Below, one piece after another: positions 1,934-49,525 of a stretch of DNA of 64,000 bases. A model generated the notes under the pieces. That model was not told the origin of the DNA, searched no databases, and was given only the letters and a program-made list of their open reading frames with translations. The translations under genes were made by a program, and so were the position numbers. The stretch's first letter is position 1, and each line of letters begins with the position of its first letter. This DNA comes from an uncultured Kiritimatiellota bacterium (GTDB taxonomy: Bacteria; Verrucomicrobiota; Kiritimatiellia; RFP12; UBA1067), in assembly GCA_934643865.1 (NCBI GenBank), contig CAKUCX010000008.1:2125-66124 (forward strand). The letters are read 5' to 3'.

Positions 1934-4411
1934 TCAGCGGATGAAGAGCGTACACCCCATCGGCTTGTAGGTTGCCACGAACGTCGTCGTGCCGTCGCCG
2001 TTCGGGACGGCCGCCACGGCGCCCCGGTAGCGATTCAGCACCTTCGGACGCGCCAGCGCGATCCGATCCGCCAGCGTCGCCGCGACCGCGTCCTTCACCG
2101 TCAGGAGCCCGACCTTCCACACGGGGGCCGGCGGCGTCCATGCGGCGTCGTACGCCACGTCGACGGCGAAGCGGTCGCCGGCAAACGCGAGCGGCGCCGC
2201 CGCCTCCTTCACATTGTAGAGGCCGTACTGGCGCAGGGCGGCGTTCGTCGTCCCGCCGTCGAGCTTCAGCGAGGCGCCGGGCGCGAACGTGAGCGCCAGG
2301 CCATCGCATGCCTGCGCCGTCAGCGGCTGAAGCGACCCGACCGCCACCTCCAGGACGTTCGACGAGGCCGTCGGCGTCTCGCTCTGCGCGGCGCCCCCGA
2401 ACCGCAGCGTGCCGCCCAGGGCGAGCGTCCCCGCGCCCTCCTTGATGAAGCGCCCGTTCACCGTCAGCGGGCGCAGGATCGCGAGGGTGAGATTGTTCGT
2501 GACGAGGACGCGCCCGACATTGCCGATCGACACGCCGCGGTTGTAGCCGTCGGACAGCGTGACGTCCTTCCGGATGAACAGCTGGGCGTACTGCTCCAGG
2601 TGGAGGGCGTTGTAGGCGAAGGTGCCGCGCCGCCCGCCGAGGTTGCGCTCATCCGAGATGTACAGGTGCGGATGGCACAGCATGTTCGGCGTCACGATGC
2701 CGGGATGGTACTGTTCCGTGTCCTTCATCGTCGCGAAGATGCGGCCCGTGTAGTTGGTGTTGAGCGCCGTCAGCTCCAAGACGCCGTGGATGTTGTTCGT
2801 GCTGGAGGAGGAGGTCGAGGTCGCCGTGATGGATCCGTCGCCGTCCACCTCCGCCTCGACCAGGTAGACCTCAAGTCCGTTGATGCGCCCATACGTCGCG
2901 AACGTATTGTCCCCGTAGGCGTGCAGCCGGCCCCGGATGGCGTAGGCGGCGCAGAGTTCGCCGTCCTGGTCGCGCAGCGCGCGCGGCAGCTTGACGTTGT
3001 TGTTCCCCATGATGAAGGAGGCGTTGCGGAGGATGAAATTGCCGCACGAGAACGCGAGCCCCCGGTAGGAGGTGTCCATCTTCCGCCCGTCGAGGATGAA
3101 CGCGCGGCAGTCGAGCCGGTAGATTCCGGTGTTCGTCGGGGCGGTGACGTCACAACCCCTGCACACATAGGTCTTGGCCGCGTTGTCGGCGCCGCTCGGC
3201 CCGGGGCACAGCGAATCGCTCCAGTAATGCGCGCCGTCCGTGTTGGCCGCGTTCTCGAAGGCGTTCCGCGGCTTGGGTTCCGAAACATTCAGGCGCGTGA
3301 CGACGGTCTGCGGCGCGATGCCGAGCACATGACCGCCGTCCGCCTCCGCGCGCAGGGTCAGCGGGTAGGCGGGGGCGGGATACGCCCCGTTGAGGATCTG
3401 GAAGGAGGACGCGGCAATCTGCGAGACGTCCACGCCGGGGGCGAACCGGATCAAGTCGACCCCCTCCGGCTCATGGCCCGTAAACGCGGAGGAGAGTTCG
3501 AGGAACGCGGTCCCGCTCGTCTGGACGCTGTTCGTGACCGTCAGAACCGCGCGCGGGCCCTGCGTGGAGCCGCTGGCGAAGAGCGTCAGGCGCGCCCCGT
3601 CCTCCAGGCGGAGGGCGCCGACGGTGACGGCACCCTCCGCGTTGAACCGCGCCCAGCCCCCCGCCAGGTGGAGCGTCCCCGCCAGCGCGGTCACGCCGTC
3701 GAACTGCACAGAGGGCTCGCCGGAAAGGTCGGGGCGGGCGGACGCGCAGACCTGGATCGTGCCCAGATAGGCGTCGAAGCGTCCCTTCAGAACGTACTGG
3801 CCGTTTCCGTCGACGGGGTAGTCGAACGGCAGCGGCTCACCGAAATGGACGCGCAGGCAGCCATCGGGCGCGCTCCTCCAATCGGCCGGGATGGAGACGC
3901 GGGAATCCGACGTCATCCTCAGATGCGCGGGGTCCGCGGCCGTGCCATGGACCGTGATGACGCCGCCCAGCCCGGGGTTCTGGCCCGTCGTATAGCACAG
4001 GGAGCTCCCCGGCAGCAGATGCAGGTCGGGGACCGTGTAGAGGACCGGGGTTCCCACCAGATACCAGAACACGCCCCCCACCACGAGCATGTCGCCCTGA
4101 AAGGTGTGGTAGGTTTCGGGGAATTCCGCCTCGTTCGCCTCCACCATCTTCTTTCCCCAGGGCGTCATGAAGACCAGCTCCGGCGTCACATAGTACTTCT
4201 TGCCGGGCCGGGGCGGCTCGCCGTCCGACCAGTACGCGCCGCGCGTAAAGTGGTCGCGTGTAAGTTCCAGCGAAGGCGTCCCGACCGTCAGGACGTAGTT
4301 GTCCCCATCGTACGGCGTGGGCGGGACGACCACCGACGCCCCCGCAGGGACGCCGGCCAGCAGGGCCAGCCCCAGGACGCGGGCCAGGCGTGAACAGATC
4401 GCGTCATGCAT
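1934..4411 (-). CDS. large secreted PATR (autotransporter-associated beta-strand repeat)/beta-helix surface protein, 825 aa
   Basis: Start reset to ATG 4411 (MHDAICSRLARVLGLALLAGVPAGASVV, signal peptide), with GGAGGA just upstream. The 87 residues upstream in the ORF are Arg/Pro junk. A PATR-like ...KEGAGTLALGGTLRFGG... is present. The protein ends ...PMGCTLFIR. Confidence 0.75.
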   Translation of the reverse strand: MHDAICSRLARVLGLALLAGVPAGASVVVPPTPYDGDNYVLTVGTPSLELTRDHFTRGAYWSDGEPPRPGKKYYVTPELVFMTPWGKKMVEANEAEFPETYHTFQGDMLVVGGVFWYLVGTPVLYTVPDLHLLPGSSLCYTTGQNPGLGGVITVHGTAADPAHLRMTSDSRVSIPADWRSAPDGCLRVHFGEPLPFDYPVDGNGQYVLKGRFDAYLGTIQVCASARPDLSGEPSVQFDGVTALAGTLHLAGGWARFNAEGAVTVGALRLEDGARLTLFASGSTQGPRAVLTVTNSVQTSGTAFLELSSAFTGHEPEGVDLIRFAPGVDVSQIAASSFQILNGAYPAPAYPLTLRAEADGGHVLGIAPQTVVTRLNVSEPKPRNAFENAANTDGAHYWSDSLCPGPSGADNAAKTYVCRGCDVTAPTNTGIYRLDCRAFILDGRKMDTSYRGLAFSCGNFILRNASFIMGNNNVKLPRALRDQDGELCAAYAIRGRLHAYGDNTFATYGRINGLEVYLVEAEVDGDGSITATSTSSSSTNNIHGVLELTALNTNYTGRIFATMKDTEQYHPGIVTPNMLCHPHLYISDERNLGGRRGTFAYNALHLEQYAQLFIRKDVTLSDGYNRGVSIGNVGRVLVTNNLTLAILRPLTVNGRFIKEGAGTLALGGTLRFGGAAQSETPTASSNVLEVAVGSLQPLTAQACDGLALTFAPGASLKLDGGTTNAALRQYGLYNVKEAAAPLAFAGDRFAVDVAYDAAWTPPAPVWKVGLLTVKDAVAATLADRIALARPKVLNRYRGAVAAVPNGDGTTTFVATYKPMGCTLFIR

Positions 4412-7107: not shown

Positions 7108-9324
7108 TCACCTGCACGCGGCGGCCATCTCGAAGACGAGCGCGCCGCCCGCGAGGATCTCCGCATGCGACAGCTTCCAGGCGGTCACCGGCCTGCCGTT
7201 CAGCGAGACGGCCTTCACGTACTTGTTCGCCTTCGAGAGATTCTTCGCGGTCATCGTAAAGGTCCTGCCCTTCGGGAGCGCGAGCGTGACCTGCGGAAGC
7301 TGCGGCGCGCCGATCACGTACTCGCCGCCGCACGGGTTGAAGGGATAGAAGCCAAGGGCGCTGAAGACGTACCACGCGCTCATCTGCCCGCAGTCGTCGT
7401 TGCCGCAGAGCCCCGCGGGGCCCACGTGGTACTGCGTGTCGAAGACCTCGCGAATGCGTTCCGCCGCCTTCTCGGGATGGCCGACCTGCGGATAGAAGTA
7501 GATGACGTGGTGGCTCGGCTCGTTGCCGTGGACGTACTGCCCGATCATGCCGGAGATGTCCAGGGGGACCGCGCCGCCGTTCGCTTCGGGGCCGCGGCCC
7601 GGCGCGGCGAAGAGCGCGTCCAGGCGCTTGACGAACGCATCGCGCCCGCCCATCGCCCGGACGAGGCCCTGCGGATCCTGCAGGACGTGCCAGGTGTACT
7701 GGAAGGCGTTGCCCTCGGTGAAGTCGTTGTCGTTTTCCGCGCCGTGGCCGAAGGCATACGGGTTGAACGGCTCGCGCCAGGCGCCGTCGGAGCGGCGGCC
7801 GCGCATGAAGCCCGTCTCCGGGTCGAAGACGTTCTTCCAGAAGGCGGCGCGGCGGGCGAAGAACGCCGCCGCGTCCCCGTGCCCGAGCTTCTCGGCGAAC
7901 ACCGAGGCGCACCAGTCCCCGAAGCCGCATTCGAGCGTCCGCGACACCGATTCGCCCCGGATGCGGTCGCACGGGAAATAGCCGTATGCGTCGTAGAGGT
8001 CCCAGTTCTCCTTCGGCTTGCCGGGATGCGCGACCGTCAGGGTGTTGGTGATCGCCGTGAACATGCGCGCGGTGTCGAACGTCCAGCCCTTCAGGTAGGC
8101 GTCGACGACGACGGGGATCGCGTGGTTGCCGACCATGCAGTCAACGTTTTTGCCGCCGTAGCTCATCACCGGGAGGCGTCCGAAGGCGCGGTCGTGCGCA
8201 AGCACGCTGGAGATGAAGGGGCCGACGATCTCGGGGACGGCGATCGTGTACCACGGATGCGCGGCGCGGAAGGTATCCCAGAGCGAGAGCGTGGTCAGAT
8301 AGGTTCCGTCCGCGCTCTGCGCGACCCGGTTGTCCGCGCCGCGGTAGCGGCCGTCGGCGTCCGCCCAGTCGTTCGGCTGGAGGTAGAGGTGGTAGAGGGC
8401 CGTGTACCAGTTCCGCTTCTGGTCGTCCGAACCCGCGCACGCCGAACGCGCGAAAAGCGCGTTCCACTTCGCCCGCGCCGCGCGCCGGACAGCCTCGAAG
8501 TCCCAGCCGGGGATGGCGTCCGCCAGATTCGCCCGGGCGGCCGCGCCGTCCACCGTGGAGTACGCGGCCTTGACGAGCAGCGGTTCCGCGCCGGCTGCGA
8601 AGGCGATGACGTAGCGCGGCGCCTCGTCCTTCGTCCCCAGCGTGCCGGGGATGCGCGTGATCGTCTGCCAGTCGCGGTTGAAGGCGAGCGCGTAGCCGAT
8701 GCGCCGCTTGGAGATCCAGCCCGTCCGCCAGTGGTCGCCGAACAGCTCCCGGCGTCCGGCGACCTGCGCCCTGGCGTCGGACGTGCGGACGCCGACCTTG
8801 GCGGGGTCCGCCATGTACACGCGCCTCCCCTGCCCAAACGGCAGGTTGACGAGCACCTTCACGACGCCGCCGGCGCCGCCCGCGATGCGGTAGAGCGCGG
8901 CCCGCTTCGCCGCCGCGATCTCGACTTCGAGGCCGTCGTCCGGCTGCACTACCCGGTAATGGCCCGGCGCCGCCCGTTCGGACGCCTTGTCGATCGCCCG
9001 CCGCGCCGGCATCGCCCCCAGCTCGCCCGTGAACGGCAGGATCTGCACATCGCCGTAGTCGGGGCATCCCGTCCCCGAGAGGTGCGTCAGGGAATACCCC
9101 AGCACGGACGCGTCGCGATGCTGGTAGCCCGAGCAGTACGCCCAGTCGTCGCAGCCCGTGTCGGGCCCCGCCTGGACCATGCCGAACGGGCACGCCGCCG
9201 CCGGATGCGTATGCCCCGTCCCCGCCGTGCCCGTGAACGGATCCACATACGCCGCGAGATCGTCGGCGGGCGCGGACAGCAGAACGCACCATCCCGCAAG
9301 AACGCCAAGGGCTTTTCTGTTCAT
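7108..9324 (-). CDS. GH92 family alpha-mannosidase
   Basis: Start reset to ATG 9324 (MNRKALGVLAGWCVLLSAPA), with AGGAGAG upstream. The N-terminal signature ...YVDPFTGTAGTGHTHPAAACPFGMVQAGPDTG... is typical of GH92. Confidence 0.85.
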   Translation of the reverse strand: MNRKALGVLAGWCVLLSAPADDLAAYVDPFTGTAGTGHTHPAAACPFGMVQAGPDTGCDDWAYCSGYQHRDASVLGYSLTHLSGTGCPDYGDVQILPFTGELGAMPARRAIDKASERAAPGHYRVVQPDDGLEVEIAAAKRAALYRIAGGAGGVVKVLVNLPFGQGRRVYMADPAKVGVRTSDARAQVAGRRELFGDHWRTGWISKRRIGYALAFNRDWQTITRIPGTLGTKDEAPRYVIAFAAGAEPLLVKAAYSTVDGAAARANLADAIPGWDFEAVRRAARAKWNALFARSACAGSDDQKRNWYTALYHLYLQPNDWADADGRYRGADNRVAQSADGTYLTTLSLWDTFRAAHPWYTIAVPEIVGPFISSVLAHDRAFGRLPVMSYGGKNVDCMVGNHAIPVVVDAYLKGWTFDTARMFTAITNTLTVAHPGKPKENWDLYDAYGYFPCDRIRGESVSRTLECGFGDWCASVFAEKLGHGDAAAFFARRAAFWKNVFDPETGFMRGRRSDGAWREPFNPYAFGHGAENDNDFTEGNAFQYTWHVLQDPQGLVRAMGGRDAFVKRLDALFAAPGRGPEANGGAVPLDISGMIGQYVHGNEPSHHVIYFYPQVGHPEKAAERIREVFDTQYHVGPAGLCGNDDCGQMSAWYVFSALGFYPFNPCGGEYVIGAPQLPQVTLALPKGRTFTMTAKNLSKANKYVKAVSLNGRPVTAWKLSHAEILAGGALVFEMAAACR

Positions 9325-9369
9325 TTTCTCTCCTTGTCCATAAGGCTCGCCCGTCACCGGCCGCCCGGC

Positions 9370-11010
9370 TCAGCGCACGAGGATGCACGTCCCCGCTCCG
9401 AGAATCCGCAGGAACTGCTCGGGCGGCAGGGCGCGGCGCGTGATGCGGACTTCGTCGAGGTTTCCGTTGAAGACCTGATACCCGGCGCTATCGCCGCCCA
9501 CGCGGATCTCCGACGCGTCACCCTTCATCGTGCAGTTCGCGGCGGACACGACCTGCCGGTAGTCCACATACCCCTTCAGCGCCTTCGCCTCGGCGTCGTA
9601 GACGTAGGCGAGATGGTGCCAGTCTCCGTCGTCCCAGCACTTCTCCGCATAGAGGTCGCCCCCGACCATGCCGTCGACGCGAAAGAGCATCTTGCGGTTC
9701 TCGCCGTTCAGAAGCACCTTGAAATTGTACTGCTTGAAAAGCGCGAAGGAATGGCGGTACACGTTCCCTTCCGCCGGCTTGCTCGTCGCACCGTGTGTGC
9801 GGAAAAAGATCTCAAGCGTGAAGCTGCGCGATGCGAGCGGATCGTCCGTGTCGTCCGCGATCGTGAACGTGCAGCCCTTCCCCGCGTCGTTCGTGCAGGA
9901 GAAGAACGACCCCGCGTTCTTCGCCAGATCGCCCGCCTGGGCATCCCGCAGCAGGGACGTGCCCCAGACCTCGTTGGTCTGCCACAGCCTATCCGTCAGG
10001 CCTTCGTAGACGATTTTCCGCACAGTGCCTGTGGCCGAATCGTAGACCGACATCAGCGTGGGCGAGACGCCGCCGTCGCCGAAGTCCGTCTCGCAGGCGA
10101 GGTGGACGAACGTGTCGGCGTCTGCAAACCGGCGCGGCCCCGCCAGGCGCAGGAACTGCGACACGTCCAGCGCCTCGTCCGAAATGCGCACCTCGTCGAT
10201 TTCGCCGTTGAACCGCCGCGTGTTGTGCAGGTCGTTGCCGCCGATCAGCAGACGGCTCGTCACGGGATGGTCGAACCCCACGGCCGGAAGCGCGTCCGTG
10301 CCAAGGAGACTTTCGTTGACCTGCGCATAGTCGACGTAGGCACGCGCCGTCTGCTTCCCGAAGTCGAACACCACGGCCACATGGTGCCAGCGGCCGTCGT
10401 TCACCAGGGGCGTTTTCTGCCCGTTGCCCCAGCCAATCCCCTTCGTCGTTCCGTCGGCCCGCTTGACCGAACAGCGGAAGAACAGGCGCGCCTCGTAGAG
10501 CGCGAGCATCCACGTCGCCTGGAACGATGCGTTCTCCTTGTGGATGATCGGCATCATGTACGCACTCGCCTGCACGATGTCGGCGGGCACGCGCACGAAG
10601 GCCTCCAGCGTCAGGTTCGTGATGGCCCGCAGACGCGCCTCCTCGGCCGCCGTCGGCGACACGAGCAGGTAGCCGCCCTGCGTGTCCGCCGCGTTCTTCT
10701 GGTGGAAGTGGAGCGCCCGCGCGTTGTCCGCCAGCCGTCCCGAGACCGGGTCGTAGACGGGCAGGTTGGACGGCGCGCCGTTTGTGTAGGACGGCAGATA
10801 GACGCTCCCGGGCGTCTCGTATGTCGCCGTGCCGTTGATCGTCTTGGGCCACGCGAGGTAGCCGCCCGCGCTGTTCGTCACGGCGGTTCCATAGTCCGTC
10901 GGCGCCGGGGCCTCCCGGTCCTCAAAGCGATACCACGCCACGGTCTCCGCCCGCACGGCGGCGGCCAGCAGAAGCGCGCATACAGCGAGGCGCATGGAGA
11001 GTTGAGACAT
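9370..11010 (-). CDS. secreted protein with two LamG/concanavalin-like lectin domains
   Basis: Start reset to ATG 11010 (MSQLSMRLAVCALLLAAAVRA). It carries two LamG C-terminal signatures, FNGEIDEVRISDEALDVSQF and FNGNLDEVRITRRALPPEQF. The protein ends ...GAGTCILVR. Confidence 0.8.
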   Translation of the reverse strand: MSQLSMRLAVCALLLAAAVRAETVAWYRFEDREAPAPTDYGTAVTNSAGGYLAWPKTINGTATYETPGSVYLPSYTNGAPSNLPVYDPVSGRLADNARALHFHQKNAADTQGGYLLVSPTAAEEARLRAITNLTLEAFVRVPADIVQASAYMMPIIHKENASFQATWMLALYEARLFFRCSVKRADGTTKGIGWGNGQKTPLVNDGRWHHVAVVFDFGKQTARAYVDYAQVNESLLGTDALPAVGFDHPVTSRLLIGGNDLHNTRRFNGEIDEVRISDEALDVSQFLRLAGPRRFADADTFVHLACETDFGDGGVSPTLMSVYDSATGTVRKIVYEGLTDRLWQTNEVWGTSLLRDAQAGDLAKNAGSFFSCTNDAGKGCTFTIADDTDDPLASRSFTLEIFFRTHGATSKPAEGNVYRHSFALFKQYNFKVLLNGENRKMLFRVDGMVGGDLYAEKCWDDGDWHHLAYVYDAEAKALKGYVDYRQVVSAANCTMKGDASEIRVGGDSAGYQVFNGNLDEVRITRRALPPEQFLRILGAGTCILVR

Positions 11011-26171: not shown

Positions 26172-27401
26172 CTACTTCAGCAGCGTCCGGAGCATCGCGG
26201 CGATGGCGTCGCCCATCTGACGGCCGCCGACCTCCGACGGGTGGACGGCGTTGACGTTCCGCAGAACCGTGGCGTCCGAACGGGCGCTGACGGGCCGCCG
26301 CGCGCGGATAAAGCCCTCGACGGGATCGATGGCATGGGCGACGGGCAGCAGCAGCAGCCTCGGGTCGCCCTTCGCCTTCACGAACGCGTCGAACGCGCGG
26401 TTGAGGGCGAAGATGATCTTGCGGTGCTGCACCGCGTTCCAGCCCGAGCCGTAGTTCGCGGCGAAGCCGTCCTGAGAGGCGCCGACGGGCGACGTGCAGA
26501 GGAGATACGTGGCGTCGGGCATGTCTTCGCGCAGGCGCCTCAGAAGGCGGTCGGCGTCGACGAGGACGCTCCGCTCGATCCGCGCACGCAGCTCCGGCGC
26601 CTCGCCCCTGAAGTCAAAGACGCTGTTCACGCCCAGCTCGACCACGACGAAGTCCGGCGCCCGGCCCCCGTTGATCCGGTCGAGCCAGCGCCGGACGTCC
26701 ACGCTCTTCCTGCCGTTCTCGAACTTCACGAGCGGGCTGCGGAGAAGCCCCCGCTGCCAGGCGTGGACGATCTTGACCGGCACGCCCAAGGCCCTAAGCT
26801 GCTCGCGCTCGGCCGCGTCCTGGACGTTGGAGACCTCCTCCTCCGACACGCAGTAGCGCGTCAGGAACGTGCTGAACGTGAAGCCGCCGTAGCCGTCGTG
26901 CGGCACGCCGTTCGTCGTCGCGCTCCGCCGCGCGCCGACGGGCGTGTAGCCCGTGAAGCCGGCCGCACGCATGTCCCGGAAGAGCTGGTCCTGGTATCCG
27001 CTGTTCGTGAGCGAGTCCCCGAGAAGCGCGAGCGTCACCCGGCGCCGCGGGTCGCGCGGCGCGGCGGCGACCTCGACCGTCGTCGTGGCCGCGGCGACGA
27101 GCCCGCCGTCGTCCCAGGCGTTGACGACGAGCGCGAACGTCCGCCCCGCGTCCTCCTCCCCCGGCGTGAAGGTCCAGCGCGTGCATTCGGCGCGGCCCTT
27201 CGCGCAGAACGCCTGGTAGGCGTAGTTCTGCGGCACGACCGAGTCGAAGACGTTGCCGTAGTAGACGTTCAGCTCAAGGCCCGGCGCGGCGTAGAGGCGT
27301 TCGGGCAGATGGAAGGCGGGCGCGGCGAACGCCGCCCCCGCCGCCAGCGCCGCGCCCGCGAACACGGCCCGTCCGATCTTCGTCATCATGTCCATCCTCA
27401 C
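26172..27401 (-). CDS. secreted SGNH/GDSL-type hydrolase (esterase)
   Basis: A signal peptide is present. Block I is LALLGDSLTNSG and block V is like NAVHPS. Its ATG overlaps the stop of the upstream gene (ATGA at 27398-27401). Confidence 0.75.
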   Translation of the reverse strand: MRMDMMTKIGRAVFAGAALAAGAAFAAPAFHLPERLYAAPGLELNVYYGNVFDSVVPQNYAYQAFCAKGRAECTRWTFTPGEEDAGRTFALVVNAWDDGGLVAAATTTVEVAAAPRDPRRRVTLALLGDSLTNSGYQDQLFRDMRAAGFTGYTPVGARRSATTNGVPHDGYGGFTFSTFLTRYCVSEEEVSNVQDAAEREQLRALGVPVKIVHAWQRGLLRSPLVKFENGRKSVDVRRWLDRINGGRAPDFVVVELGVNSVFDFRGEAPELRARIERSVLVDADRLLRRLREDMPDATYLLCTSPVGASQDGFAANYGSGWNAVQHRKIIFALNRAFDAFVKAKGDPRLLLLPVAHAIDPVEGFIRARRPVSARSDATVLRNVNAVHPSEVGGRQMGDAIAAMLRTLLK

Positions 27402-30163: not shown

Positions 30164-30183
30164 CGTGCCCTCCCTCTTCCTTC

Positions 30184-32667
30184 CTATCGGAAAATGAGCG
30201 CCATGCCGCCCGCCGAGACGGCGAGCGCGGCCTCCTGCCAGACGAGCCGGCGGCCCTCGACGGGAACGCCGTCCAGAAGCACCTTCCAGTCCGCGAGGGG
30301 ACTGCCCGTCGCGCTCGCCGCGAACACAAGCGGCAGCACGCCCAACGGCACCCTCCCGTCGATGCCGACCACGTTGAGCGTACCCGCCCCGGCCAGCCGC
30401 ACGCCCTTGAGCGTGCCGACGCCCGTGCCCGCCGACAGGTCGACGGCCAGCTTCGACAGCTCCTGCCGCCCCGTGACCTGCGTGCAGTCGAGCGTCGCGC
30501 CCCGGTCGACCCGCACGCACGCGGTCGGCGCAAAGCCCGCGCTCGGCCGTTCCGCGACGCAGAGCGGATAGAACGGCGTGCGGTACCAGGCCTGTCCGCC
30601 GAGGGCCTTTTGGCCGGCCTGTTCGTCCATGGCCGTCCATGTCCCGTCCTTCCCGGACGGGCTTGATTCGACCTTCCACGCCCCGGGGAAGCGTTCCTGC
30701 CAGCCGTCCCACTGGGACTTCACGTTGTAGCCCGTGACGAACGCCCCCTCCCGCGCGGGGATGCGGTACGTCGCGACGAGCCAGGTGTCCGGCGCGTCGA
30801 GGAGCGGCGCGAAGTCGAACCGGCAGCTGTTGACGGTGCTGTCCAAGAACATGGCGACCTCGGGCGCGCATTGGTAGTCGGAGCCGTGCTTCCCGTCCGG
30901 GTAGTCCCCGGCGGGCTTGTAGGCCGTCGACGAGAACATCACCTGCTTGGGCCCAAGCGCCTCGGGCGCCGTCGTGTTGGCGACCTGACTGTACGTGGAC
31001 TGGGAAGTCCCGCCGCCGTCGCAGATCGTCCCGTCCTCGCCGTAAAGCCGGAACGGACCGAGGTTCAGCTCCCTTCCGCGCACGGCCGTCTCCTTGATCG
31101 TCACGCGCCAGAATTCGTTTGTCGTACCACGCCGCGCGACGGCGAGGACGCCCGCGCGCACGTGGACGTCCGCCACCCCGGATGCAGCGTCCAGGGCGAG
31201 ATAGGACGTGCCGTCTCCAGTCTTCTCGACCTCCACGCCACCCGCCTGCAGGATGCCGTCAATGAAATCGACCGCCGCATCGTCAGCTTCCCCCGCGAGG
31301 ACGAGCCGGCCGCCGTTCACATACGTGACGGTTGCGGCGGCATCGAGGTTGGCGGCCCGCGCACGCACCGTCGCGCCGTCGAGGACAAGCGTCGTGCCGG
31401 CTGCCGCCGTGATGGACGCGAGCGAGATGGGGACATCTGCCGGGGCGAAGGACACCGTGCCCGCCGTCACCGCCAGGGCGTCGAAGGACGGCGTGTTCGT
31501 GATCGTCAGCGTGCCCGCGCCAACCTTTTCGACGTTGATTCCCGCCGTGATGTTCGGCGCGTTCAGGACGCCGTCGGGGCGCTGCGAGCCGAAGACGAGC
31601 GTCGCGGCGCGCGGGGCGCCGTTGGAGACGATCGACTGCGCGGCGGCCGTCAGCCCGTTGACCGCCTGCGCCGTGCCGTTGAGGTCGAGCCAATTGTATT
31701 CGTTGTCGCCGTCGAGAACCACGTCGCCGCCGTCCGCACGGCACGGCAGCGCATTCTTTTCGGAACAGGTGAGGCACATGAAGGAGGACAGGCGCAGATG
31801 GCCCGTGTGCCCCCAGGAGAAGGCCGAAGCCCCCAGCTTCCAGCCGAAGTGGTGCTCCTTCCCCGTCGCGGAATGGACGACGACATCGCCCGCGCCCGCC
31901 GTCTTCACGAGGCCCTCCGTCGGCTCCGTGCGAGGATTGCCGTACTTGTAGCCGAGCGTGATCGGCCGCCCGTCCACGCTTTCAAGAATCAGCGCGCGCC
32001 CCTTCGTGGACGAAAGGCGCCTGCTCGCGCCATAGCCGTTGTTGTCCGACAGGAAGCCGCCGTTGAAGAGGATGCGCGCGTCGCAGTTCGAGCTGAGATT
32101 CTGGATGCGGTCGGAGTTTTGGTTCTGAAAGAGCGCGCCGTTCGGATCAAGCCGGATGATGTCGAGGACGCCCGATTCGGCCGCCGCATCTGCGGGAACG
32201 ACGATGTCGCCGCAGAAAAGGTGGTGGGCCGTCGCGTCGCAGAACCGGTCGTGGGCGCTCGTCGCGACGTCCGCGACGTCGACATCCCACGTAAAGACCT
32301 CTCCCGTCGTGGGGTTCTGCCAAAACCTGCGGCGCTTGCCGCCGAGCGTGACACATCCCGTCCCCCCTCCCCCGATCGTAAGCGGGCGGGCTTTCATGGT
32401 GATCTGCCCCCAGTCGCCAACCGTCACCGTCGCCGCGTCGCCCGCCGCGCCGCCGACGGCGAGTGCCTCCGTGACGGTCAAGACGACAGGCGCGTCCTTC
32501 GTGCCGCCCGCGACGGCGAGCGCGCCGTGGACGGCGACGGCGGAATGCGTCCGGGAAGCCGCGATGGCCAACGTCTCGCCCTGCGCAACCGTCAACGGCT
32601 CGGCCACATCCGCACGGACGGCGCAGGCGGCGGCAAGAGCCGCCATCAACAACGACATGTTCTTCAT
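30184..32667 (-). CDS. large secreted PATR/beta-helix surface protein with a discoidin-like C-terminal region, 827 aa
   Basis: Start reset to ATG 32667 (MKNMSLLMAALAAACAVRA), with GGAGG upstream. PATR-like ...VEKVGAGTLTITNTPSF... is present. The protein ends ...AGGMALIFR. Confidence 0.75.
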   Translation of the reverse strand: MKNMSLLMAALAAACAVRADVAEPLTVAQGETLAIAASRTHSAVAVHGALAVAGGTKDAPVVLTVTEALAVGGAAGDAATVTVGDWGQITMKARPLTIGGGGTGCVTLGGKRRRFWQNPTTGEVFTWDVDVADVATSAHDRFCDATAHHLFCGDIVVPADAAAESGVLDIIRLDPNGALFQNQNSDRIQNLSSNCDARILFNGGFLSDNNGYGASRRLSSTKGRALILESVDGRPITLGYKYGNPRTEPTEGLVKTAGAGDVVVHSATGKEHHFGWKLGASAFSWGHTGHLRLSSFMCLTCSEKNALPCRADGGDVVLDGDNEYNWLDLNGTAQAVNGLTAAAQSIVSNGAPRAATLVFGSQRPDGVLNAPNITAGINVEKVGAGTLTITNTPSFDALAVTAGTVSFAPADVPISLASITAAAGTTLVLDGATVRARAANLDAAATVTYVNGGRLVLAGEADDAAVDFIDGILQAGGVEVEKTGDGTSYLALDAASGVADVHVRAGVLAVARRGTTNEFWRVTIKETAVRGRELNLGPFRLYGEDGTICDGGGTSQSTYSQVANTTAPEALGPKQVMFSSTAYKPAGDYPDGKHGSDYQCAPEVAMFLDSTVNSCRFDFAPLLDAPDTWLVATYRIPAREGAFVTGYNVKSQWDGWQERFPGAWKVESSPSGKDGTWTAMDEQAGQKALGGQAWYRTPFYPLCVAERPSAGFAPTACVRVDRGATLDCTQVTGRQELSKLAVDLSAGTGVGTLKGVRLAGAGTLNVVGIDGRVPLGVLPLVFAASATGSPLADWKVLLDGVPVEGRRLVWQEAALAVSAGGMALIFR

Positions 32668-39717: not shown

Positions 39718-42285
39718 TCAGCGCCTTGTACCCTGCCCTGCGCCCTTCAGGCAGAGGCCGCACACGAGCGCGCTCACGGCCGCGAAGGCGAGCGCCACGC
39801 ACCGGTGGCTCCACAGCAGCACGTCCTGTCCGTGGCTGCCGAAGACCGTCATCATCGGCATCACCGCCGTGAAGACCGTCCCCGCCGCGAGGAGCGTCCA
39901 GAACGCCCACGCGAGGGACATCCAGAGATTCCGCTCCGTGCGCTCCGCCGCGCGCATCCCCGCGATCAGGACGACGCCCGCCGCGAAGCCGCCGCCCGCG
40001 ACCATGTGGAGGACGAGCCACCAGCCCGTCATCGCCCCGCACAGCCAGCCGACGACGCCCGACAGGGCGAGGTAGCCGAGGCAGCAGACGAAGCCGACGT
40101 CGACGATCCACTTCGCGAAGCCCCAGATGAAGTCGTCCGAGTTGTCCGAGATCCACCGCCCCAGACGGTTCAGCGCCACGGCCGCCGCCGCCGCCGCGAA
40201 GAGGCAGAGAAGACCGAACACCGTCCAGAGGAACACCTTGAAGAGCGGACGCATCGCGAACGTCGTCCCGAGCGTCGCGTAGTAGAAGCCGTCCACCCCC
40301 AGCAGCTCGGCCTGGGAAACAAACGGCGCCGCAGCCTCCTGCACCGGACCCGTCGGCGCGATCTTCCCGAGGAAGAACGCCGAATCGGCGGTGTGGCACG
40401 CCGCGCACTTGGCCGGCGCCGCGCCGCGCGCCTGGCGCGCCGCGCGCACGTCGTGCCCGACCGGCCAGGAGACCGGCTGCGCCTCGGGTGCGCCCGGCGT
40501 CTTGACGAGCGCACCGTCCGCACCGAGGGAGAAGACGAGCCCGCCCGCGACGTAGCGCACGCCCTTACCCGCATGGACAAGCGCCCGGCGCACCATCTCC
40601 TCCGTGAAGGGCTGCTCGGCGTCCCTGACCTTCGCGTACTGTTCAAGCGTCCAGGCGTCGAGCATCGGCACGAACGCCGTGCCATCCGCCGAAAGCGTCC
40701 CGACGGGGAAGGCGTTCGTCGGGGCCGCCACGCCCTCGCACGCCGTCACGCCGCCCGCGCCGTCGATCGTATAGACCTTGCCCGCGCGGCAGGCGGCGAC
40801 CTTCTCCTTCGACACGCCGACCTTCGCGTTGAAGAGCGTGGCGAGCAGATTGCGGAACTCGCCCGGCGCGCGGTCCTCCGCCGCGATGTAGGGGACGTCG
40901 TTCGTGGGCGTGCGGTAGACGGGCACGCCGTCGTCTCGCAGCGTCGTCACGCCCACGGGGCCGTCCGTCTCCTTCAGGAGTTCCAGCGCCACCGTGACCC
41001 GTTCGACGACCGTGAACGCCTCGCCCGCGAGCGCGGCGGCCTCGGTGGGCGGAACCGGCTTCAGCGCGCCGCCCTCGGCCACGCGGTGGAAACCGCTCGG
41101 CCACATCATGCGGCGGGGCTCCACGACGCCCTGCGCGTTCTTCACGAAGACGGGTTCGAGGATGACCGGGCAGTCCGTCGCCCACTGGGCGCGCCCGTAG
41201 ACGCCGATGCGGTTGGCGCGCGCCGTGCGCACCTGCGCGAGCCTGCCGCCCTCCGTCACGCCCGCGTGGCAGACCGTGCAGGCGAGCTTCTGGAAGTGGA
41301 CGAGCGGGATGCCGGCGTGGACGGGCTTCGGCCCCGCCCCGTCCTTCTCCACGTGGCAGGACGCGCAGCTCTTCGTCGCCACGCGGTGGTCCATCCCGTT
41401 CTGGTGGCAGTCCACGCACCGCATCCCGCGCTGGAGATGCACATCGCCCGAAATCGCGTGGGACGGCATCCCCTTCTGCGACACGCCGTGGCACGCCAGG
41501 CAGTTCTCGTTCTTCGGTTTGCCCACATTGAAGACGCAGCGCCCCTTCTCGTCGAACTTCGCGGGGTCGTAGGCCGTCGTCTCGGGAACCTTGAAGAGAT
41601 GGTCGTCGGGATTTTCCGCCGCCGCCCAGGTGGCCTCCAGCCGCTCGTTCATGCCGCCCACGGCGGCGAGCCCGGAGGCGGCCGTCGCGGCGCCCTGCCA
41701 GTTCTCGCGCAGCACCTGCCGCGCCCACTCGCTCGAATCATAGCCCTCCTGCTGGTGGCAGGCGAGGCAGTTGGGGCCGAGCGCGCCCGTCACGAACCAG
41801 CGCTGGCGCGCGCCGGCGACCTCGTTGAGCGCGTTCGTGTCGCACGCGATGCCGCCGCCGGGGAAGTGGCGGCCGAAGAGCTTCGTCCACTGCCAGCACG
41901 AGAGGCCCACGTCGCGCGGCGCGCGCGCGCCCGCCTGGCCGTGGAGGGAGAGCGGGATCGCCGTGCCCGTCGCCTCGTCCGCCCAGAACCACGGCTCGCC
42001 CGCGACGGAGGACGGCGCGTCGCCCGCGTCCAGCCCCGTGCGGAAGTGGCTGCCCCGGTGCATCGCGGCGACGTCGTGGCACTGCCCGCACGTCTGCGCG
42101 AGGGAGATCGGCCGCGGGAGGCGTGCGGTCGGGGAGACCTTCTCGCCGTCCGCGTCGCGCGGCGCGAGCCTGTGGACGGGGACCGTGCGCCCCCCGTTCC
42201 AGTGCGAGGCCGCTTCGGCCCCCGGACCAATCAACGACGCCGCGAGGGCAAACGCCGCCGCGCACGCGGGAAGGCTGCTCTTCAT
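39718..42285 (-). CDS. heptahaem c-type cytochrome fused to a C-terminal polytopic membrane domain, 855 aa
   Basis: A signal peptide is present. Seven CXXCH motifs are CGQCH, CLACH x2, CVDCH, CASCH, CTVCH and CAACH. The last about 220 aa contain about 5 TM helices with conserved-looking His residues. Confidence 0.8.
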   Translation of the reverse strand: MKSSLPACAAAFALAASLIGPGAEAASHWNGGRTVPVHRLAPRDADGEKVSPTARLPRPISLAQTCGQCHDVAAMHRGSHFRTGLDAGDAPSSVAGEPWFWADEATGTAIPLSLHGQAGARAPRDVGLSCWQWTKLFGRHFPGGGIACDTNALNEVAGARQRWFVTGALGPNCLACHQQEGYDSSEWARQVLRENWQGAATAASGLAAVGGMNERLEATWAAAENPDDHLFKVPETTAYDPAKFDEKGRCVFNVGKPKNENCLACHGVSQKGMPSHAISGDVHLQRGMRCVDCHQNGMDHRVATKSCASCHVEKDGAGPKPVHAGIPLVHFQKLACTVCHAGVTEGGRLAQVRTARANRIGVYGRAQWATDCPVILEPVFVKNAQGVVEPRRMMWPSGFHRVAEGGALKPVPPTEAAALAGEAFTVVERVTVALELLKETDGPVGVTTLRDDGVPVYRTPTNDVPYIAAEDRAPGEFRNLLATLFNAKVGVSKEKVAACRAGKVYTIDGAGGVTACEGVAAPTNAFPVGTLSADGTAFVPMLDAWTLEQYAKVRDAEQPFTEEMVRRALVHAGKGVRYVAGGLVFSLGADGALVKTPGAPEAQPVSWPVGHDVRAARQARGAAPAKCAACHTADSAFFLGKIAPTGPVQEAAAPFVSQAELLGVDGFYYATLGTTFAMRPLFKVFLWTVFGLLCLFAAAAAAVALNRLGRWISDNSDDFIWGFAKWIVDVGFVCCLGYLALSGVVGWLCGAMTGWWLVLHMVAGGGFAAGVVLIAGMRAAERTERNLWMSLAWAFWTLLAAGTVFTAVMPMMTVFGSHGQDVLLWSHRCVALAFAAVSALVCGLCLKGAGQGTRR

Positions 42286-47041: not shown

Positions 47042-49525
47042 TCACCGAACGAGGAGGAGCGTGCCGCCGGGCACGTAGACGAGGAGAAGCGCCTTCGCGT
47101 CGGCGGAGCGCGCGACCCTGAAATGCCCGGCGGCCTCGCCCGCCACCTTCGGCGCGCCCGTGATGCCGCCCGCCGCCGTCGCGAGGACGGCGCCCGACGG
47201 CCGGAGCGCCTTCATGTCGCCCTCCAGTTCAAGCGCGGCGCCCTCGCCAAAGACCAGCGCGCCGTCGGTCGCGAAGGCGCGCCCCGCCGCGAGATCCGCC
47301 GCGCGCGCGACGAGGCGCGCCGTCACCGTCACGCCCGCCTCGGCGAGCCACGCGCTCGCCACGTTGACCGCAGGGCATCCAACGAGCTCCTGCACGACGA
47401 GCGTGCGGCTCGGCGCCGCGAAGACGGCACCCGCCGTGCCGCTGAGGCGCTCCAGGCGGCGCACCGTCTTCGCCTCCTTCAGGGCCGCGTGGGCCGCCGT
47501 GCCCGGAATCGTCAGCGTGAAGAGCGGCGCGTCGCCCGTGTTCTCCAGGCGCGCGTAGTCGCCGGGATCGCGCGTGCCGCGCCCCAGGCGGTCGTAGACG
47601 AGCCCGCACTTCGCCTTGTCCGTCCACGTCGGGGCAGCCACCTTCGGCACCGACATGGCCGGCCCGACCTTTCGCCCCGACACGCCGATGCGCCACCAGA
47701 ACGGGTTGGGGCCGGGCGTCAGCACGGCGTTGCCGAAGCAAATGTCGTCGCTCGCCCCCGTGGACTGCCGCCCGTAGACGCTCTTCCCGTTGATCCAGAG
47801 GGTCGAGACCGTCGTCTCGGAGGCGGCGAACGTCCACGTCACGTTCGTGGCGTCGTGGTTCCAGACGTAGCCCTGATAGCAGAAGGTGTAGCCGTTCGCC
47901 GTCACGACCTCACCGAACTCATTCGTCGCCATCTCCTTCAGCTCGGCCGTCTCGTAGGCGAAGCGGACGGACGCCGTCACCCCGTTCGTCTGGCAGTTGT
48001 CGGCGTTGTCGCAGTGGAGGTTCGCGCGAACGGCGAGCAATTCCGGGCTCGCGCCTTCCTTGTGCCAGTAGGCATACGCCTTGTGGCCCTCGTAGAGGCC
48101 GCTGTTGAAGTTCCGGTCCGGCTCTTCAAGCGCCGCCGTGCCGGCCTCAAGGTCGAGCGCCGTGAAATCCGGCGCGTCCATCGAACACGTCAGCGTCGCG
48201 CCCGCCTTCTTGAGGACGCCGGCCCACGCGCCGGCGCAGTCGCCGACCGAGACGCTCCCCGTCACCTCCAGCTTCGGCAGGCGCCAGGCGTCCCCAAGGC
48301 GATCCTGGCCTTCTGAAAATGCGAGCGCGGCGTCGTGGGCGGAGAAGACGCCCGTTCCCATCGCGGCGGGCAGCGCGCCGTCCGCCATCGCCTTCAGGAC
48401 GACGTTCGAGACGGCCAGCCCCTTGTCAAAGACGTTCGAGGGCGCGTGCAGCTCGATGGTCGGCGCGTGCGCGACGGCCATGTTGTTCCAGCAGATGGCG
48501 AGCGTGTCCCGCGCCGTGACCGGCCCCCGCAGGATCGTCACGTTCTCGTTGGGCGGCGCCTGCGCCCCGTTGCCCTGCCCGCACGCGCCGATGGCGGCGC
48601 GCCCCTCGAAGAGCAGCGGCCCGTCCCATGTGCCGCCGTAGCTCGTCGTCGTAAAGGGCCACTTCAGGCCGTTCGTCTCCAGAACCCGCACCGTCCAGGG
48701 CTTCGCGCCCACGCCCGTGCTCTCGTAGAGGTCGAGGGAGGCGCCGTCCCGCAGCGTGACGGTGTTCGACGCATCGCCTCCGAGCTTCGCGTAGTTGTTC
48801 ATCGTCGCCCGCGCGCGAGAAATGACGAAATGCCCCGGATTCGTGACGACCGTTCGGATGCAGAAGGCGCCAGCGCCGTCCGTGTCGCAGAACGTCAGCG
48901 TGTGCCCGTTCATGTCGAGGGAGTTGTTCGCGTTGTTGCAGGGGAAGTCCTGGTAGGTGCCCACCTGGACGATCTTCGCGTCGCCCGTCATCGTGAGCCG
49001 CGTGCCGCCCCACACGCCGTTGCGCTCCTTCCGCTCCGGGGTACGCGCGACGAGGGCGCCCATGCCGCCGACGCCCGCGCCGGCGAAGGCCAGCCGCTCG
49101 CCCGCGAAATCGAGCCTGTCGTCGGCCGTCGCGTCGAGGCATTCCGTCTCCAGCGTCGCGCCGTCGGCGACGAACGTGCCGTGATCCGTGTCGCCCAAGG
49201 CGCCCAGGGCGGTCAGGCGCAGGACCGCGCCCGCCGCCACGTGGACCTCGCCCGTGTAGCCGGCGGACTTGAGGTCGACGTCGATCTCAAGCCGCCCGCC
49301 CCCGGCGACGCGCAAATCCGCCGCCGCGTGGAGGCCGGCGCGCGTCGGCGTCTCGCCCGCCACGCTGCTCGTCACGTAGCCCTGCGCGAAGGCCTCGTCC
49401 AGCGTGTTCGTCGCCCCGTCCGGCAGCGTGACCGTGTAGACGGACGCCCCGGCGGCCGCGCCCGCGACCAAGATGCCCGCGAGGGCGCAACGCCGCCCTT
49501 GCGTGCCAAGAAACCAACGCTCCAT
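47042..49525 (-). CDS. large secreted PATR/beta-helix surface protein with a PA14-like region, 827 aa
   Basis: Signal peptide-like MERWFLGTQGRRCALAGILVAGAAAGA. Beta-helix/PATR-like repeats are present. The protein ends ...VPGGTLLLVR. Confidence 0.75.
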   Translation of the reverse strand: MERWFLGTQGRRCALAGILVAGAAAGASVYTVTLPDGATNTLDEAFAQGYVTSSVAGETPTRAGLHAAADLRVAGGGRLEIDVDLKSAGYTGEVHVAAGAVLRLTALGALGDTDHGTFVADGATLETECLDATADDRLDFAGERLAFAGAGVGGMGALVARTPERKERNGVWGGTRLTMTGDAKIVQVGTYQDFPCNNANNSLDMNGHTLTFCDTDGAGAFCIRTVVTNPGHFVISRARATMNNYAKLGGDASNTVTLRDGASLDLYESTGVGAKPWTVRVLETNGLKWPFTTTSYGGTWDGPLLFEGRAAIGACGQGNGAQAPPNENVTILRGPVTARDTLAICWNNMAVAHAPTIELHAPSNVFDKGLAVSNVVLKAMADGALPAAMGTGVFSAHDAALAFSEGQDRLGDAWRLPKLEVTGSVSVGDCAGAWAGVLKKAGATLTCSMDAPDFTALDLEAGTAALEEPDRNFNSGLYEGHKAYAYWHKEGASPELLAVRANLHCDNADNCQTNGVTASVRFAYETAELKEMATNEFGEVVTANGYTFCYQGYVWNHDATNVTWTFAASETTVSTLWINGKSVYGRQSTGASDDICFGNAVLTPGPNPFWWRIGVSGRKVGPAMSVPKVAAPTWTDKAKCGLVYDRLGRGTRDPGDYARLENTGDAPLFTLTIPGTAAHAALKEAKTVRRLERLSGTAGAVFAAPSRTLVVQELVGCPAVNVASAWLAEAGVTVTARLVARAADLAAGRAFATDGALVFGEGAALELEGDMKALRPSGAVLATAAGGITGAPKVAGEAAGHFRVARSADAKALLLVYVPGGTLLLVR
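48972..49008 (-). repeat. internal (coding) copy of a 37-nt duplicated segment
   Basis: atcttcgcgtcgcccgtcatcgtgaGccgcgtgccgc encodes ..TRLTMTGDAKIV.. within CDS 47042..49525. Confidence 0.9.

What the first reader, a model, noticed from the sequence alone, without database searches (positions are those of the whole stretch)
1934..1963. Four large secreted proteins share an identical-style C-terminal tail G-x-x-[L/I/C]-[F/L/I]-[I/V/F]-R-COOH: a candidate undescribed sorting or attachment tag
Seen directly: four proteins terminate in the same pattern immediately before the stop. They are ...YKPMGCTLFIR* (CDS 1934..4411), ...RILGAGTCILVR* (LamG protein, 9370..11010, tail codons 9373-9399), ...AVSAGGMALIFR* (30184..32667) and ...VYVPGGTLLLVR* (47042..49525). 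All four have N-terminal signal peptides. One of them, the LamG protein, is otherwise unrelated to the three PATR proteins. None of the other secreted enzymes in the window (GH92, sialidase, GH127-like, SGNH and others) ends this way. The tail is too short for a TM helix, so it differs from PEP-CTERM/LPXTG/GlyGly-CTERM-type signals, which have a hydrophobic helix plus a basic cluster. It also ends in Arg rather than the aromatic residue of the OMP beta-signal. It resembles the first strand of a PATR repeat (GxGTLxL), which suggests a beta-strand-complementation or recognition function.
Basis: seen in the sequence. Interest (0 to 1): 0.7.

Follow-up and report, generated by a model that had tools for sequence, protein, structure and literature searches.

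The report
Short C-terminal tag of Kiritimatiellia proteins
Many large exported sugar-binding and adhesin-like proteins of Kiritimatiellia bacteria, otherwise unrelated to one another, end in the same nine residues (Pro-x-Gly-Thr, four hydrophobic residues, terminal Arg); this looks like an undescribed address or anchoring tag, but its function has not been tested.

Summary
Four minus-strand genes end in GCTLFIR, GTCILVR, GMALIFR and GTLLLVR, against about 0.001-0.005 expected. The four proteins share no other significant similarity, and the tails use different codons.

- **Conservation.** The tail is kept in relatives of all four, down to about 25% identity. The consensus is P-[NRK]-G-T-h-h-h-h-R, and it ends on the last residue in 234 of 305 proteins.
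- **Cross-family test.** A matrix trained on LamG tails alone recognises 39/39 family-D ends and 125/150 family-C ends above every one of 1,729 control ORF ends.
- **Lineage.** 21 tail-ending ORFs occur in 221 kb of Kiritimatiellia-type DNA, against 0 in 903 kb from other phyla.
- **Carriers.** They have signal peptides and lectin or adhesin folds (LamG; beta-helix with PA14) and sit in operons with tail-less hydrolases.
- **Structure.** AlphaFold2 models of two families leave the tail unpacked, with low confidence.
- **Prior description.** No Pfam or NCBIfam model matches, and no paper was found.

The tail lacks the transmembrane helix and basic cluster of PEP-CTERM-type signals. It also lacks the domain of the T9SS signal and the aromatic end of the OMP beta-signal.

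Best reading: a new, minimal, lineage-specific C-terminal localisation or anchoring tag read by another molecule. The mechanism is inferred, not shown.

The parts
1934..1963 (-). Stop codon plus the last nine codons (KPMGCTLFIR... tail PMGCTLFIR) of gene A
   Evidence: Translation. The 46%-identical homologue P0164 ends ..YKLYGLMIMVR. The LamG-trained matrix scores this end 6.8, above the maximum of all control ends (2.6).
1934..4411 (-). Gene A: 825-aa signal-peptide protein with no Pfam hit; last gene of the operon LamG-GH92-unknown-A
9370..9399 (-). Stop codon plus the last nine codons (GAGTCILVR) of the LamG gene B
   Evidence: Translation. In the AF2 model me448b91ee065 the last residues are coil with pLDDT about 55, while both LamG domains exceed 90. 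The tail is conserved in about 110 homologues.
9370..11010 (-). Gene B: 546-aa signal-peptide protein with two LamG (PF13385) domains; it lies immediately upstream of GH92 (7108-9357)
30184..30213 (-). Stop codon plus the last nine codons (AGGMALIFR) of gene C
   Evidence: Translation. The exhaustive search found 247 cluster representatives; 114 of the best 150 end in the tail under the loose pattern.
30184..32667 (-). Gene C: 827-aa signal-peptide protein with no Pfam hit, inside the operon unknown-GH127-like-unknown-C-unknown-SGNH
47042..47071 (-). Stop codon plus the last nine codons (PGGTLLLVR) of gene D
   Evidence: Translation. It is the only window match to the DNA pattern P-x-G-T-h4-R-stop, with 0 expected. 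In the AF2 model ma49e15134484, residues 818-827 are coil with pLDDT about 64, following a confident hairpin.
47042..49525 (-). Gene D: 827-aa signal-peptide protein, a beta-helix with an inserted PA14-like lectin domain

Best explanation
The nine C-terminal residues P-[NRK]-G-T-h-h-h-h-R-COOH are a lineage-specific protein tag of the class Kiritimatiellia. The tag is appended to Sec-exported, mostly non-enzymatic glycan-binding or adhesin-like proteins: LamG proteins, beta-helix/PA14 proteins, and some multidomain enzymes.

Proposed mechanism (inferred). After export through Sec, the tail stays unfolded and exposed. An envelope component reads it in trans. That component would recognise two things: the free terminal arginine with its carboxylate, and the short, fully hydrophobic strand, most simply by beta-strand addition into a hydrophobic groove. 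The outcome is delivery to, or retention at, the cell surface. The lectin-like proteins would thus be held next to the tail-less hydrolases encoded in the same operons.

Shown:
- The tag exists.
- It is placed strictly at the C-terminus.
- It is conserved across unrelated families.
- It is restricted to this lineage in the data available.
- It is associated with signal peptides.
- It is not packed in the two structure models.

Inferred: recognition in trans, surface localisation, and whether the tail is cleaved or kept.
For: - **Unrelated carriers.** The four window proteins share nothing else.
- **Same profile in two families.** Families D (n=40) and LamG (n=112) converge position by position: P at -8 in 42-54%, G at -6 in 78-92%, T at -5 in 52-65%, LIVMF at -4 to -1, and R at the end in about 90%.
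- **Cross-family recognition.** A matrix trained on LamG tails alone scores 39/39 family-D ends and 125/150 family-C ends above the maximum of 1,729 control ORF ends.
- **Strict terminal anchoring.** The motif ends on the last residue in 234/305 proteins and is almost never displaced by 1-10 residues.
- **Lineage restriction.** 21 of 503 ORF ends carry the tail in Kiritimatiellia-type DNA, against 0 of 1,729 in other phyla (Fisher 2e-14). Thirteen of the 21 are bystander genes rather than the seed gene. LamG relatives in other phyla end differently.
- **Signal peptides.** 208/231 carriers of at least 500 aa pass a crude signal-peptide test. Most of the rest are fragments.
- **Free tail in models.** AF2 models of two unrelated carriers leave the tail as low-confidence coil beside confidently folded domains.
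- **Minimal length.** In LamG proteins only about nine residues follow the domain.
- **Diverse carriers.** A DNA scan centred on the tag found LamG, PATR, fn3, CBM-like and AXE1 esterase carriers.
- **Lectin nature and operon context.** D has a PA14-like fold. Carriers are encoded next to GH92, GH127-like, SGNH and GH20 genes that lack the tail.
- **Sorting-signal criteria.** The tag meets four of Haft's seven attributes of small C-terminal sorting signals: near the C-terminus, many per genome, signal peptides, and otherwise unrelated carriers.
Against: - There is no experimental evidence on localisation, cleavage or a partner.
- No candidate receptor or processing enzyme was identified. No complete genome was available for co-occurrence analysis.
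- The tail fails two hallmark features of known small sorting domains: a helix-length hydrophobic segment and a basic cluster.
- Low AF2 confidence for a terminal peptide is weak evidence of exposure.
- Taxon labels come from metagenome bins, and some are inconsistent.
- In the tag-seeded metagenome contigs, tail genes were not dense: one extra in 170 kb.
- Long ORFs fuse an ECF-sigma-like part to tail proteins. If these are real fusions, they are inner-membrane proteins with a periplasmic tail, which argues against the tag being a signal for full secretion.
Confidence: 0.55

Rival explanations
1. Assembly tag. The exposed, aggregation-prone strand is flanked by Pro/Gly on one side and Arg on the other. 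It could dock carriers onto a scaffold protein or onto each other. Models are dockerin-cohesin pairing, or donor-strand exchange as in type V pili. The result would be a multi-protein glycan-capture complex rather than routing of the protein.
For: - The tail is free and both faces of the strand are hydrophobic.
- Many different carriers occur per genome, and they cluster with glycan-degrading operons.
- Strict terminal placement fits a strand that must insert end-on.
Against: - No acceptor or scaffold family was identified.
- The hydrolases in the same operons lack the tail, unlike cellulosomal enzymes.
- Nothing was tested.
Confidence: 0.15
2. A beta-signal-like handle. An Omp85-family protein (BamA/TamA-like) or another outer-membrane translocon pairs with the last strand, as with the C-terminal insertion signal of outer-membrane barrels. 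Here the handle would move or tether soluble passenger proteins.
For: The grammar is the same as for the OMP beta-signal (from established knowledge of that signal). It is the last strand, has a conserved Gly five to six residues from the end, has hydrophobic residues after it, and must be at the extreme C-terminus.
Against: - It ends in Arg, not Phe/Trp/Tyr.
- The hydrophobic residues are consecutive, not alternating.
- The carriers are not barrels in AF2 models.
- No Kiritimatiellia barrel protein could be examined to see how that lineage's own beta-signal looks.
Confidence: 0.12
3. A cleaved sorting signal of the sortase, exosortase or rhombosortase kind. A dedicated peptidase would cut at the conserved P-x-G-T and attach the protein covalently to a lipid, glycan or peptidoglycan.
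For: - The tag has a miniature version of the three-part design: signature motif, hydrophobic stretch, basic end.
- Related PVC phyla use PEP-CTERM on similar passengers.
- In rhombosortase systems, C-terminal tags ride on type II secretion substrates (own knowledge). Kiritimatiella has a type II system.
Against: - Four to five hydrophobic residues cannot hold the tail in a membrane for an intramembrane enzyme.
- No model of a known class matches.
- No candidate enzyme was found.
Confidence: 0.1
4. No trans function. The tail could be an intrinsic structural or stability element, for example a cap strand or a C-terminus that resists tail-specific proteases. On this reading it arose convergently or was inherited with a small shared C-terminal fold.
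For: - In families A, C and D the tail follows a conserved hairpin (..[DN]G.L.v...) that is confidently folded in the model of D.
- YkuD-type enzymes end in a similar P.GT.V.IR strand that is part of their fold.
Against: - LamG carriers have no such hairpin. The tail follows the domain directly.
- The tail is unpacked in both models.
- The position-specific profile is the same in unrelated families and only in one lineage.
Confidence: 0.06
5. Chance, composition bias, or a DNA-level repeat at gene ends.
For: High G+C (70%) enriches Gly, Ala, Arg and Leu codons.
Against: - Expected 0.001-0.005 per 34 genes, against 4 observed.
- Codons and downstream DNA differ.
- The tail is conserved to 25% identity.
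- It is absent from 1,729 control ORF ends, including high-G+C phyla.
Confidence: 0.01

Closest known systems
PEP-CTERM / exosortase and the other small three-part C-terminal sorting domains (GlyGly-CTERM, MYXO-CTERM, LPXTG and others; Haft, bioRxiv 10.1101/2023.06.07.544157)
   Same: - It sits at the C-terminus of signal-peptide proteins.
- There are many copies per genome.
- The carriers are otherwise unrelated.
- The order is a conserved motif, then hydrophobic residues, then a basic end.
- Sister PVC phyla use these signals on similar LamG and beta-helix passengers.
   Different: - The hydrophobic stretch is 4-5 residues, not a transmembrane helix.
- There is one terminal Arg instead of a cluster of 2-5.
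- The Arg must be the very last residue.
- No HMM of these classes matches.
- No cognate intramembrane enzyme is known.
Type IX secretion C-terminal domain (T9SS CTD) of Bacteroidota
   Same: - It is a lineage-specific C-terminal signal on Sec-exported adhesins and glycan-binding proteins.
- Its last strand is hydrophobic and ends in a basic residue. Bacteroidota LamG relatives end ..HRMVVLK and ..KVIVKF.
- The functional context is the same: polysaccharide or host-glycan foragers.
   Different: - The CTD is a folded beta-sandwich of about 70-100 residues, whereas here nine residues suffice after a LamG domain.
- No CTD model matches.
- T9SS is not known in the PVC group (own knowledge).
C-terminal beta-signal of outer-membrane beta-barrel proteins (recognised by BAM)
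   Same: - It is strictly at the extreme C-terminus.
- It has strand character.
- It has a conserved Gly a few residues before the end, followed by hydrophobic residues.
   Different: - The terminal residue is Arg rather than aromatic.
- The hydrophobic residues are consecutive rather than alternating.
- The carriers are soluble lectin or beta-helix folds, not barrels.
Donor-strand mechanisms (chaperone-usher pili; C-terminal strand exchange in type V pili) and PDZ-type recognition of free C-termini
   Same: A short terminal strand, unpaired in the monomer, binds another protein by beta-strand addition. PDZ-type sites read the free carboxylate.
   Different: - No pilin fold, chaperone or acceptor groove was identified.
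- PDZ ligands normally end in a hydrophobic residue.
- This is an analogy only.

Membership tests
Small three-part C-terminal sorting domains (PEP-CTERM, GlyGly-CTERM, MYXO-CTERM, LPXTG type; criteria) | Located at or very near the C-terminus | tested here: met
   The motif ends on the last residue in 234/305 proteins.
Small three-part C-terminal sorting domains | Multiple occurrences in one genome, on proteins with no other similarity | tested here: met
   There are four in 64 kb, with no pairwise similarity. Bystander carriers occur in related loci.
Small three-part C-terminal sorting domains | Most carriers have an N-terminal signal peptide | tested here: met
   208/231 pass a crude hydrophobicity test, and most of the rest are fragments. 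No dedicated signal-peptide predictor was available.
Small three-part C-terminal sorting domains | [quoted passage not shown] | tested here: inconclusive
   G (-6) is present in 78-92% and R (0) in about 90%. T (-5) reaches only 52-65% and P (-8) only 42-54%.
Small three-part C-terminal sorting domains | Hydrophobic segment long enough for a transmembrane alpha-helix | tested here: not met
   The run of hydrophobic residues (Thr counted) before the last residue is five in 111/152 proteins and never more than six.
Small three-part C-terminal sorting domains | Cluster of 2-5 basic residues at the end | tested here: not met
   There is a single terminal Arg, and position -1 is V/F/I/L.
PEP-CTERM, T9SS CTD, LPXTG, GlyGly-CTERM and other curated sorting models | Match to the family's curated HMM | tested here: not met
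   No C-terminal hit in NCBIfam or Pfam for the full proteins at E <= 1. No C-terminal hit in NCBIfam for excised C-termini at E <= 10.
T9SS C-terminal domain | Folded beta-sandwich domain of about 70-100 residues at the C-terminus | tested here: not met
   In LamG carriers only about nine residues follow the LamG domain, and they are modelled as coil.
OMP beta-signal | Aromatic last residue, alternating hydrophobic pattern, and a carrier that is a beta-barrel | tested here: not met
   The last residue is R in about 90% and W in 2 of 152. The AF2 models are LamG sandwiches and a beta-helix with PA14, not barrels.
Any sorting system | Cognate processing or receptor protein that co-occurs with the tag | not testable with these tools

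The most novel reading that the evidence does not exclude
The tag marks a so far unknown protein-localisation pathway of Kiritimatiellota. On this reading a receptor reads a free C-terminal Arg plus a five-residue hydrophobic strand. It then carries or tethers up to perhaps a couple of hundred lectin-like proteins per genome to the cell surface. That figure is a rough extrapolation from this single window. This would be the lineage's counterpart of T9SS CTD or PEP-CTERM sorting, and of SusD-like surface glycan binders, built on a different principle: no membrane-spanning segment and no folded signal domain.
Probability: 0.3. Interest if true: 0.85.

Novelty: new variant of a known kind. Interest (0 to 1): 0.7.

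Why it matters
Kiritimatiellia are abundant degraders of sulfated and host-derived glycans in guts, rumen and sediments. The cultured type strain lacks the TonB-dependent Sus-like uptake systems of Bacteroidota (PMC5148204). How these bacteria hold glycans at the cell surface is therefore open.

A nine-residue tag found on roughly one gene in nine of this window would give three things:
- a simple way to list the candidate surface-exposed or anchored proteins of any Kiritimatiellia genome;
- a handle for finding the machinery, by phylogenetic profiling or pull-down with the peptide;
- a new, very small type of bacterial C-terminal signal, outside the three-part rule that has guided the discovery of such signals.

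A curated HMM or pattern would also improve annotation of hundreds of 'hypothetical' proteins.

Tried and rejected
**Known sorting models.**
- Full proteins were scanned at E <= 1 against NCBIfam and Pfam, and excised C-termini at E <= 10 against NCBIfam. Nothing relevant was found.
- PATR (PF12951) is not detected in A, C or D.

**Alternative origins of the shared tail.**
- A DNA-level repeat or terminator was rejected: codons and downstream DNA differ.
- Paralogy among the four was rejected.

**Searches that failed or were uninformative.**
- The genome scan with the broad LamG alignment A1 failed because it had no conserved stretch. It was redone with A2.
- The metagenome DNA scan first failed for too few specified bases. 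It was rerun with TGA as the stop. About 16-25 of the 120 are credible protein ends. Five are YkuD L,D-transpeptidase look-alikes. These contigs carry no taxonomy.
- Cluster look-up for organism names of family-C members returned no names.
- Gene A has only two relatives in the word-indexed search.
- Five literature searches found no description. Subscription journals are not covered.

**Partner and beta-signal.**
- A search of the window and loci for an outer-membrane barrel, to compare the lineage's own beta-signal, found only a TolC-like OEP gene in L201. That is uninformative.
- No candidate partner gene was found in the window. It holds ExbB, a multihaem cytochrome and housekeeping genes.

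**ECF-sigma fusions.** The fused ORFs may be merged gene calls, so they were not used as evidence.
Full report
**1. The observation**

The window has 70% G+C. It is a chromosomal stretch carrying rpoB, rpoC, purL, rny, queA and a glycyl-radical enzyme gene. These are interspersed with genes for exported proteins.

- A, 1934-4411: ...YKPMGCTLFIR
- B, 9370-11010: ...RILGAGTCILVR
- C, 30184-32667: ...AVSAGGMALIFR
- D, 47042-49525: ...VYVPGGTLLLVR

All four start with signal-peptide-like N-termini.

I curated 34 genes. Poisson P is about 1e-11 to 1e-13, for a pattern chosen after the fact. Of 267 stop-to-stop ORFs of at least 100 aa in all six frames, only these four end this way.

The four proteins show no significant pairwise similarity. 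The tails are encoded by different codons and followed by unrelated DNA. Chance, paralogy and a DNA repeat are therefore excluded.

The other signal-peptide proteins in the window lack the tail. These are GH92, a BNR sialidase, a GH127-like protein, an SGNH protein and several unknowns.

**2. The tail in relatives**

- **Family D.** Relatives (P0001-P0042, 29-60% identity) nearly all end ...S.DGK.L.L.Y.P.GT.vifR. Those that carry a name are from Kiritimatiellia.
- **LamG family (B).** About 110 full-length relatives, down to 24% identity, end [P].G[TLM]hhhhR. Again only Kiritimatiellia/-ae names appear. The tail starts only about nine residues after the conserved end of the LamG domain.
- **Family A.** It has only two relatives in the word-indexed search. 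The 46%-identical one ends ..YGLMIMVR.
- **Family C.** The exhaustive search found 247 cluster representatives. Of the best 150, 75 match the strict pattern and 114 a loose one.

The position-specific make-up is the same in the unrelated families D and LamG:
- -8: P (42-54%)
- -7: N/R/K
- -6: G (78-92%)
- -5: T (52-65%; otherwise L or M)
- -4 to -1: L/I/V/M/F
- last residue: R (about 90%; rarely K, H, Q or W)

A scoring matrix was trained only on LamG tails. It places 39/39 family-D ends and 125/150 family-C ends above the best of 1,729 control ORF ends. The window's four tails are the top four of all window ORF ends.

The motif ends on the very last residue in 234 of 305 proteins. It is almost never shifted inward by a few residues. 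This implies that the free C-terminus is part of what is recognised.

**3. Lineage**

A scan of one genome per species with a LamG alignment returned 80 loci.
- Twelve are of the Kiritimatiellia type. They are rumen and gut MAGs, some labelled Verrucomicrobia, Lentisphaerae or, in one case, Spirochaetaceae.
- The other 68 come from other phyla and serve as controls.

I counted six-frame ORFs of at least 150 aa. The Kiritimatiellia-type DNA, including the window (221 kb), has 21 tail ends among 503 ORFs. The other phyla (903 kb) have 0 among 1,729 (Fisher 2e-14).

Thirteen of the 21 are bystander genes, unrelated to the LamG seed. Examples are L001 442-5097, L003 746-4642, L004 2172-6245 and L007 899-4093.

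LamG relatives in other phyla end differently. The Bacteroidota ones end like T9SS C-terminal domains.

I also ran a metagenome DNA scan centred on the tag (P-x-G-T-h4-R-TGA). Most matches are chance. About 16-25 terminate long ORFs with signal peptides. Their Pfam hits are diverse: LamG, PATR, fn3/Pur_ac_phosph_N, CBM-like, DUF642 and an AXE1 esterase. Five matches are YkuD L,D-transpeptidase ends, an unrelated look-alike.

**4. Anatomy of the carriers**

AlphaFold2 with family alignments gave confident models.
- **B** (pLDDT 86) is two LamG sandwiches. The last residues are coil with pLDDT about 55.
- **D** (pLDDT 88) is a beta-helix with an inserted domain. That domain matches PA14 lectin domains of yeast flocculins, Epa adhesins and the Marinomonas ice-binding adhesin, at E about 1e-4. 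Its conserved hairpin 802-817 is confidently folded. The final VPGGTLLLVR is coil with pLDDT about 64.

In two unrelated carriers, therefore, the tail is not modelled as part of the fold.

The carriers sit in operons with hydrolases that lack the tail:
- B-GH92-unknown-A
- unknown-GH127-like-unknown-C-unknown-SGNH
- a LamG carrier followed by an unknown gene, GH20 and a phosphoesterase gene in L007

**5. Comparison with known signals**

No NCBIfam or Pfam model matches the C-termini. This holds for full proteins at E <= 1 in both libraries, and for excised tails at E <= 10 in NCBIfam.

Haft lists seven attributes of small prokaryotic C-terminal sorting domains (bioRxiv 10.1101/2023.06.07.544157).
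- Met: C-terminal location, many per genome, signal peptides, otherwise unrelated carriers.
- Partly met: the conserved signature.
- Not met: a helix-length hydrophobic segment and a basic cluster.

The tail is not a T9SS CTD, because there is no folded domain. It is not an OMP beta-signal either: it ends in Arg, its hydrophobic residues are consecutive, and the carriers are not barrels.

Five full-text searches found no description. [quoted passage not shown] It reports no TonB-dependent Sus-like uptake systems (PMC5148204).

**6. Interpretation**

I conclude that this is a genuine, undescribed, lineage-specific C-terminal tag.

The most likely mechanism runs as follows. The tail stays exposed after Sec export. 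An envelope component reads it in trans, through the terminal Arg carboxylate and the hydrophobic strand. The lectin-like carrier is thereby brought to, or held at, the cell surface. I give this a confidence of 0.55. The mechanism is inferred, not shown.

The rivals are:
- a docking or assembly tag;
- a beta-signal-like handle for an Omp85-type protein;
- a cleaved, sortase-like signal;
- a purely structural element.

Chance is excluded.

Limits:
- There was no complete genome, so no proteome-wide count and no search for a co-occurring enzyme.
- Taxon labels come from metagenome bins.
- Signal peptides were judged by a crude hydrophobicity rule.
- AF2 confidence at chain ends is weak evidence.
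- The pattern was defined after seeing the data. The cross-family matrix test and the other-phyla control do not depend on that choice.

Noticed in passing
P0030, P0268, P0294 (relatives of genes D and C); L008:2830-6153: These are long ORFs. An ECF-sigma-like N-terminal part (PF08281 in P0030) plus one hydrophobic segment runs in frame into a tail-bearing protein. That protein has its own internal Met and signal peptide. This is either a fused trans-envelope sensor or merged gene calls. Either way, a sigma-factor gene sits directly upstream of some tail genes.
   Followed up: partly
P0161, P0310; L195:2937-5465(-), L095:2852-4117(-): Some tail-bearing proteins do not start with a plain signal peptide. 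They start with a conserved motif 'GKP.AGNPHVRFDEGEVASA.P.RRGSLLYK' followed by a hydrophobic segment. This is a recurrent N-terminal element that I could not name.
   Followed up: no
window 47042-49525 (-): Protein D is not a detectable PATR protein. Its AF2 model is a beta-helix with an inserted PA14-like lectin domain, similar to yeast flocculins, Epa adhesins and the Marinomonas ice-binding adhesin PA14. It also resembles PA14 sensor domains of clostridial anti-sigma factors.
   Followed up: partly
L018:9590-10318: This contig belongs to a rumen MAG labelled Spirochaetaceae (RUG13809). It carries a Kiritimatiellia-type LamG end (...DEVRISKGVLTVDQMLHVTKNGTVLSIR). That suggests mis-binning or transfer.
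   Followed up: no
L101, L172, L114, L177, L143 (metagenome loci): ORFs of the YkuD L,D-transpeptidase type (motif ..GC[IV]R[IV]..) also end in ..LP.GT.V.[IL]R. Here it is presumably the last strand of that fold. Any pattern-based census must exclude this look-alike.
   Followed up: partly
P0267, P0286; L054:8948-15376; L073:102-3770: Tail-less relatives and proteins of other PVC lineages often end in 'FF[RK]VKV', 'YYRV' or 'FFRAVP'-type sequences. This is a second recurrent C-terminal pattern, and I did not examine it.
   Followed up: no
L201:7447-12493: Two tandem 830-aa LamG paralogues both end ..GRAPNAF[ST]IVVR, with Gly at -6 replaced by Ala and Thr at -5 by Phe. They sit behind an AraC/periplasmic-binding-type regulator on a 354-kb contig.
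   Followed up: partly
window 61029-62585 (-) and 27398-30871 (-): The 518-aa ORF at 61029-62585 is Arg/Gly-rich and has no family hit. It is probably an antisense artefact of the high G+C. The long ORF 27398-30871 overlaps the 3' end of gene C only through an upstream extension, and the real start is likely near 30163.
   Followed up: partly
window 39718-43338 (-): An 855-aa multihaem c-type cytochrome (c7/c3/NrfB-like, MtrC-like hits) lies next to ApbE and ExbB/ExbD-like genes. This is unusual company in a fermentative glycan degrader's genome.
   Followed up: no
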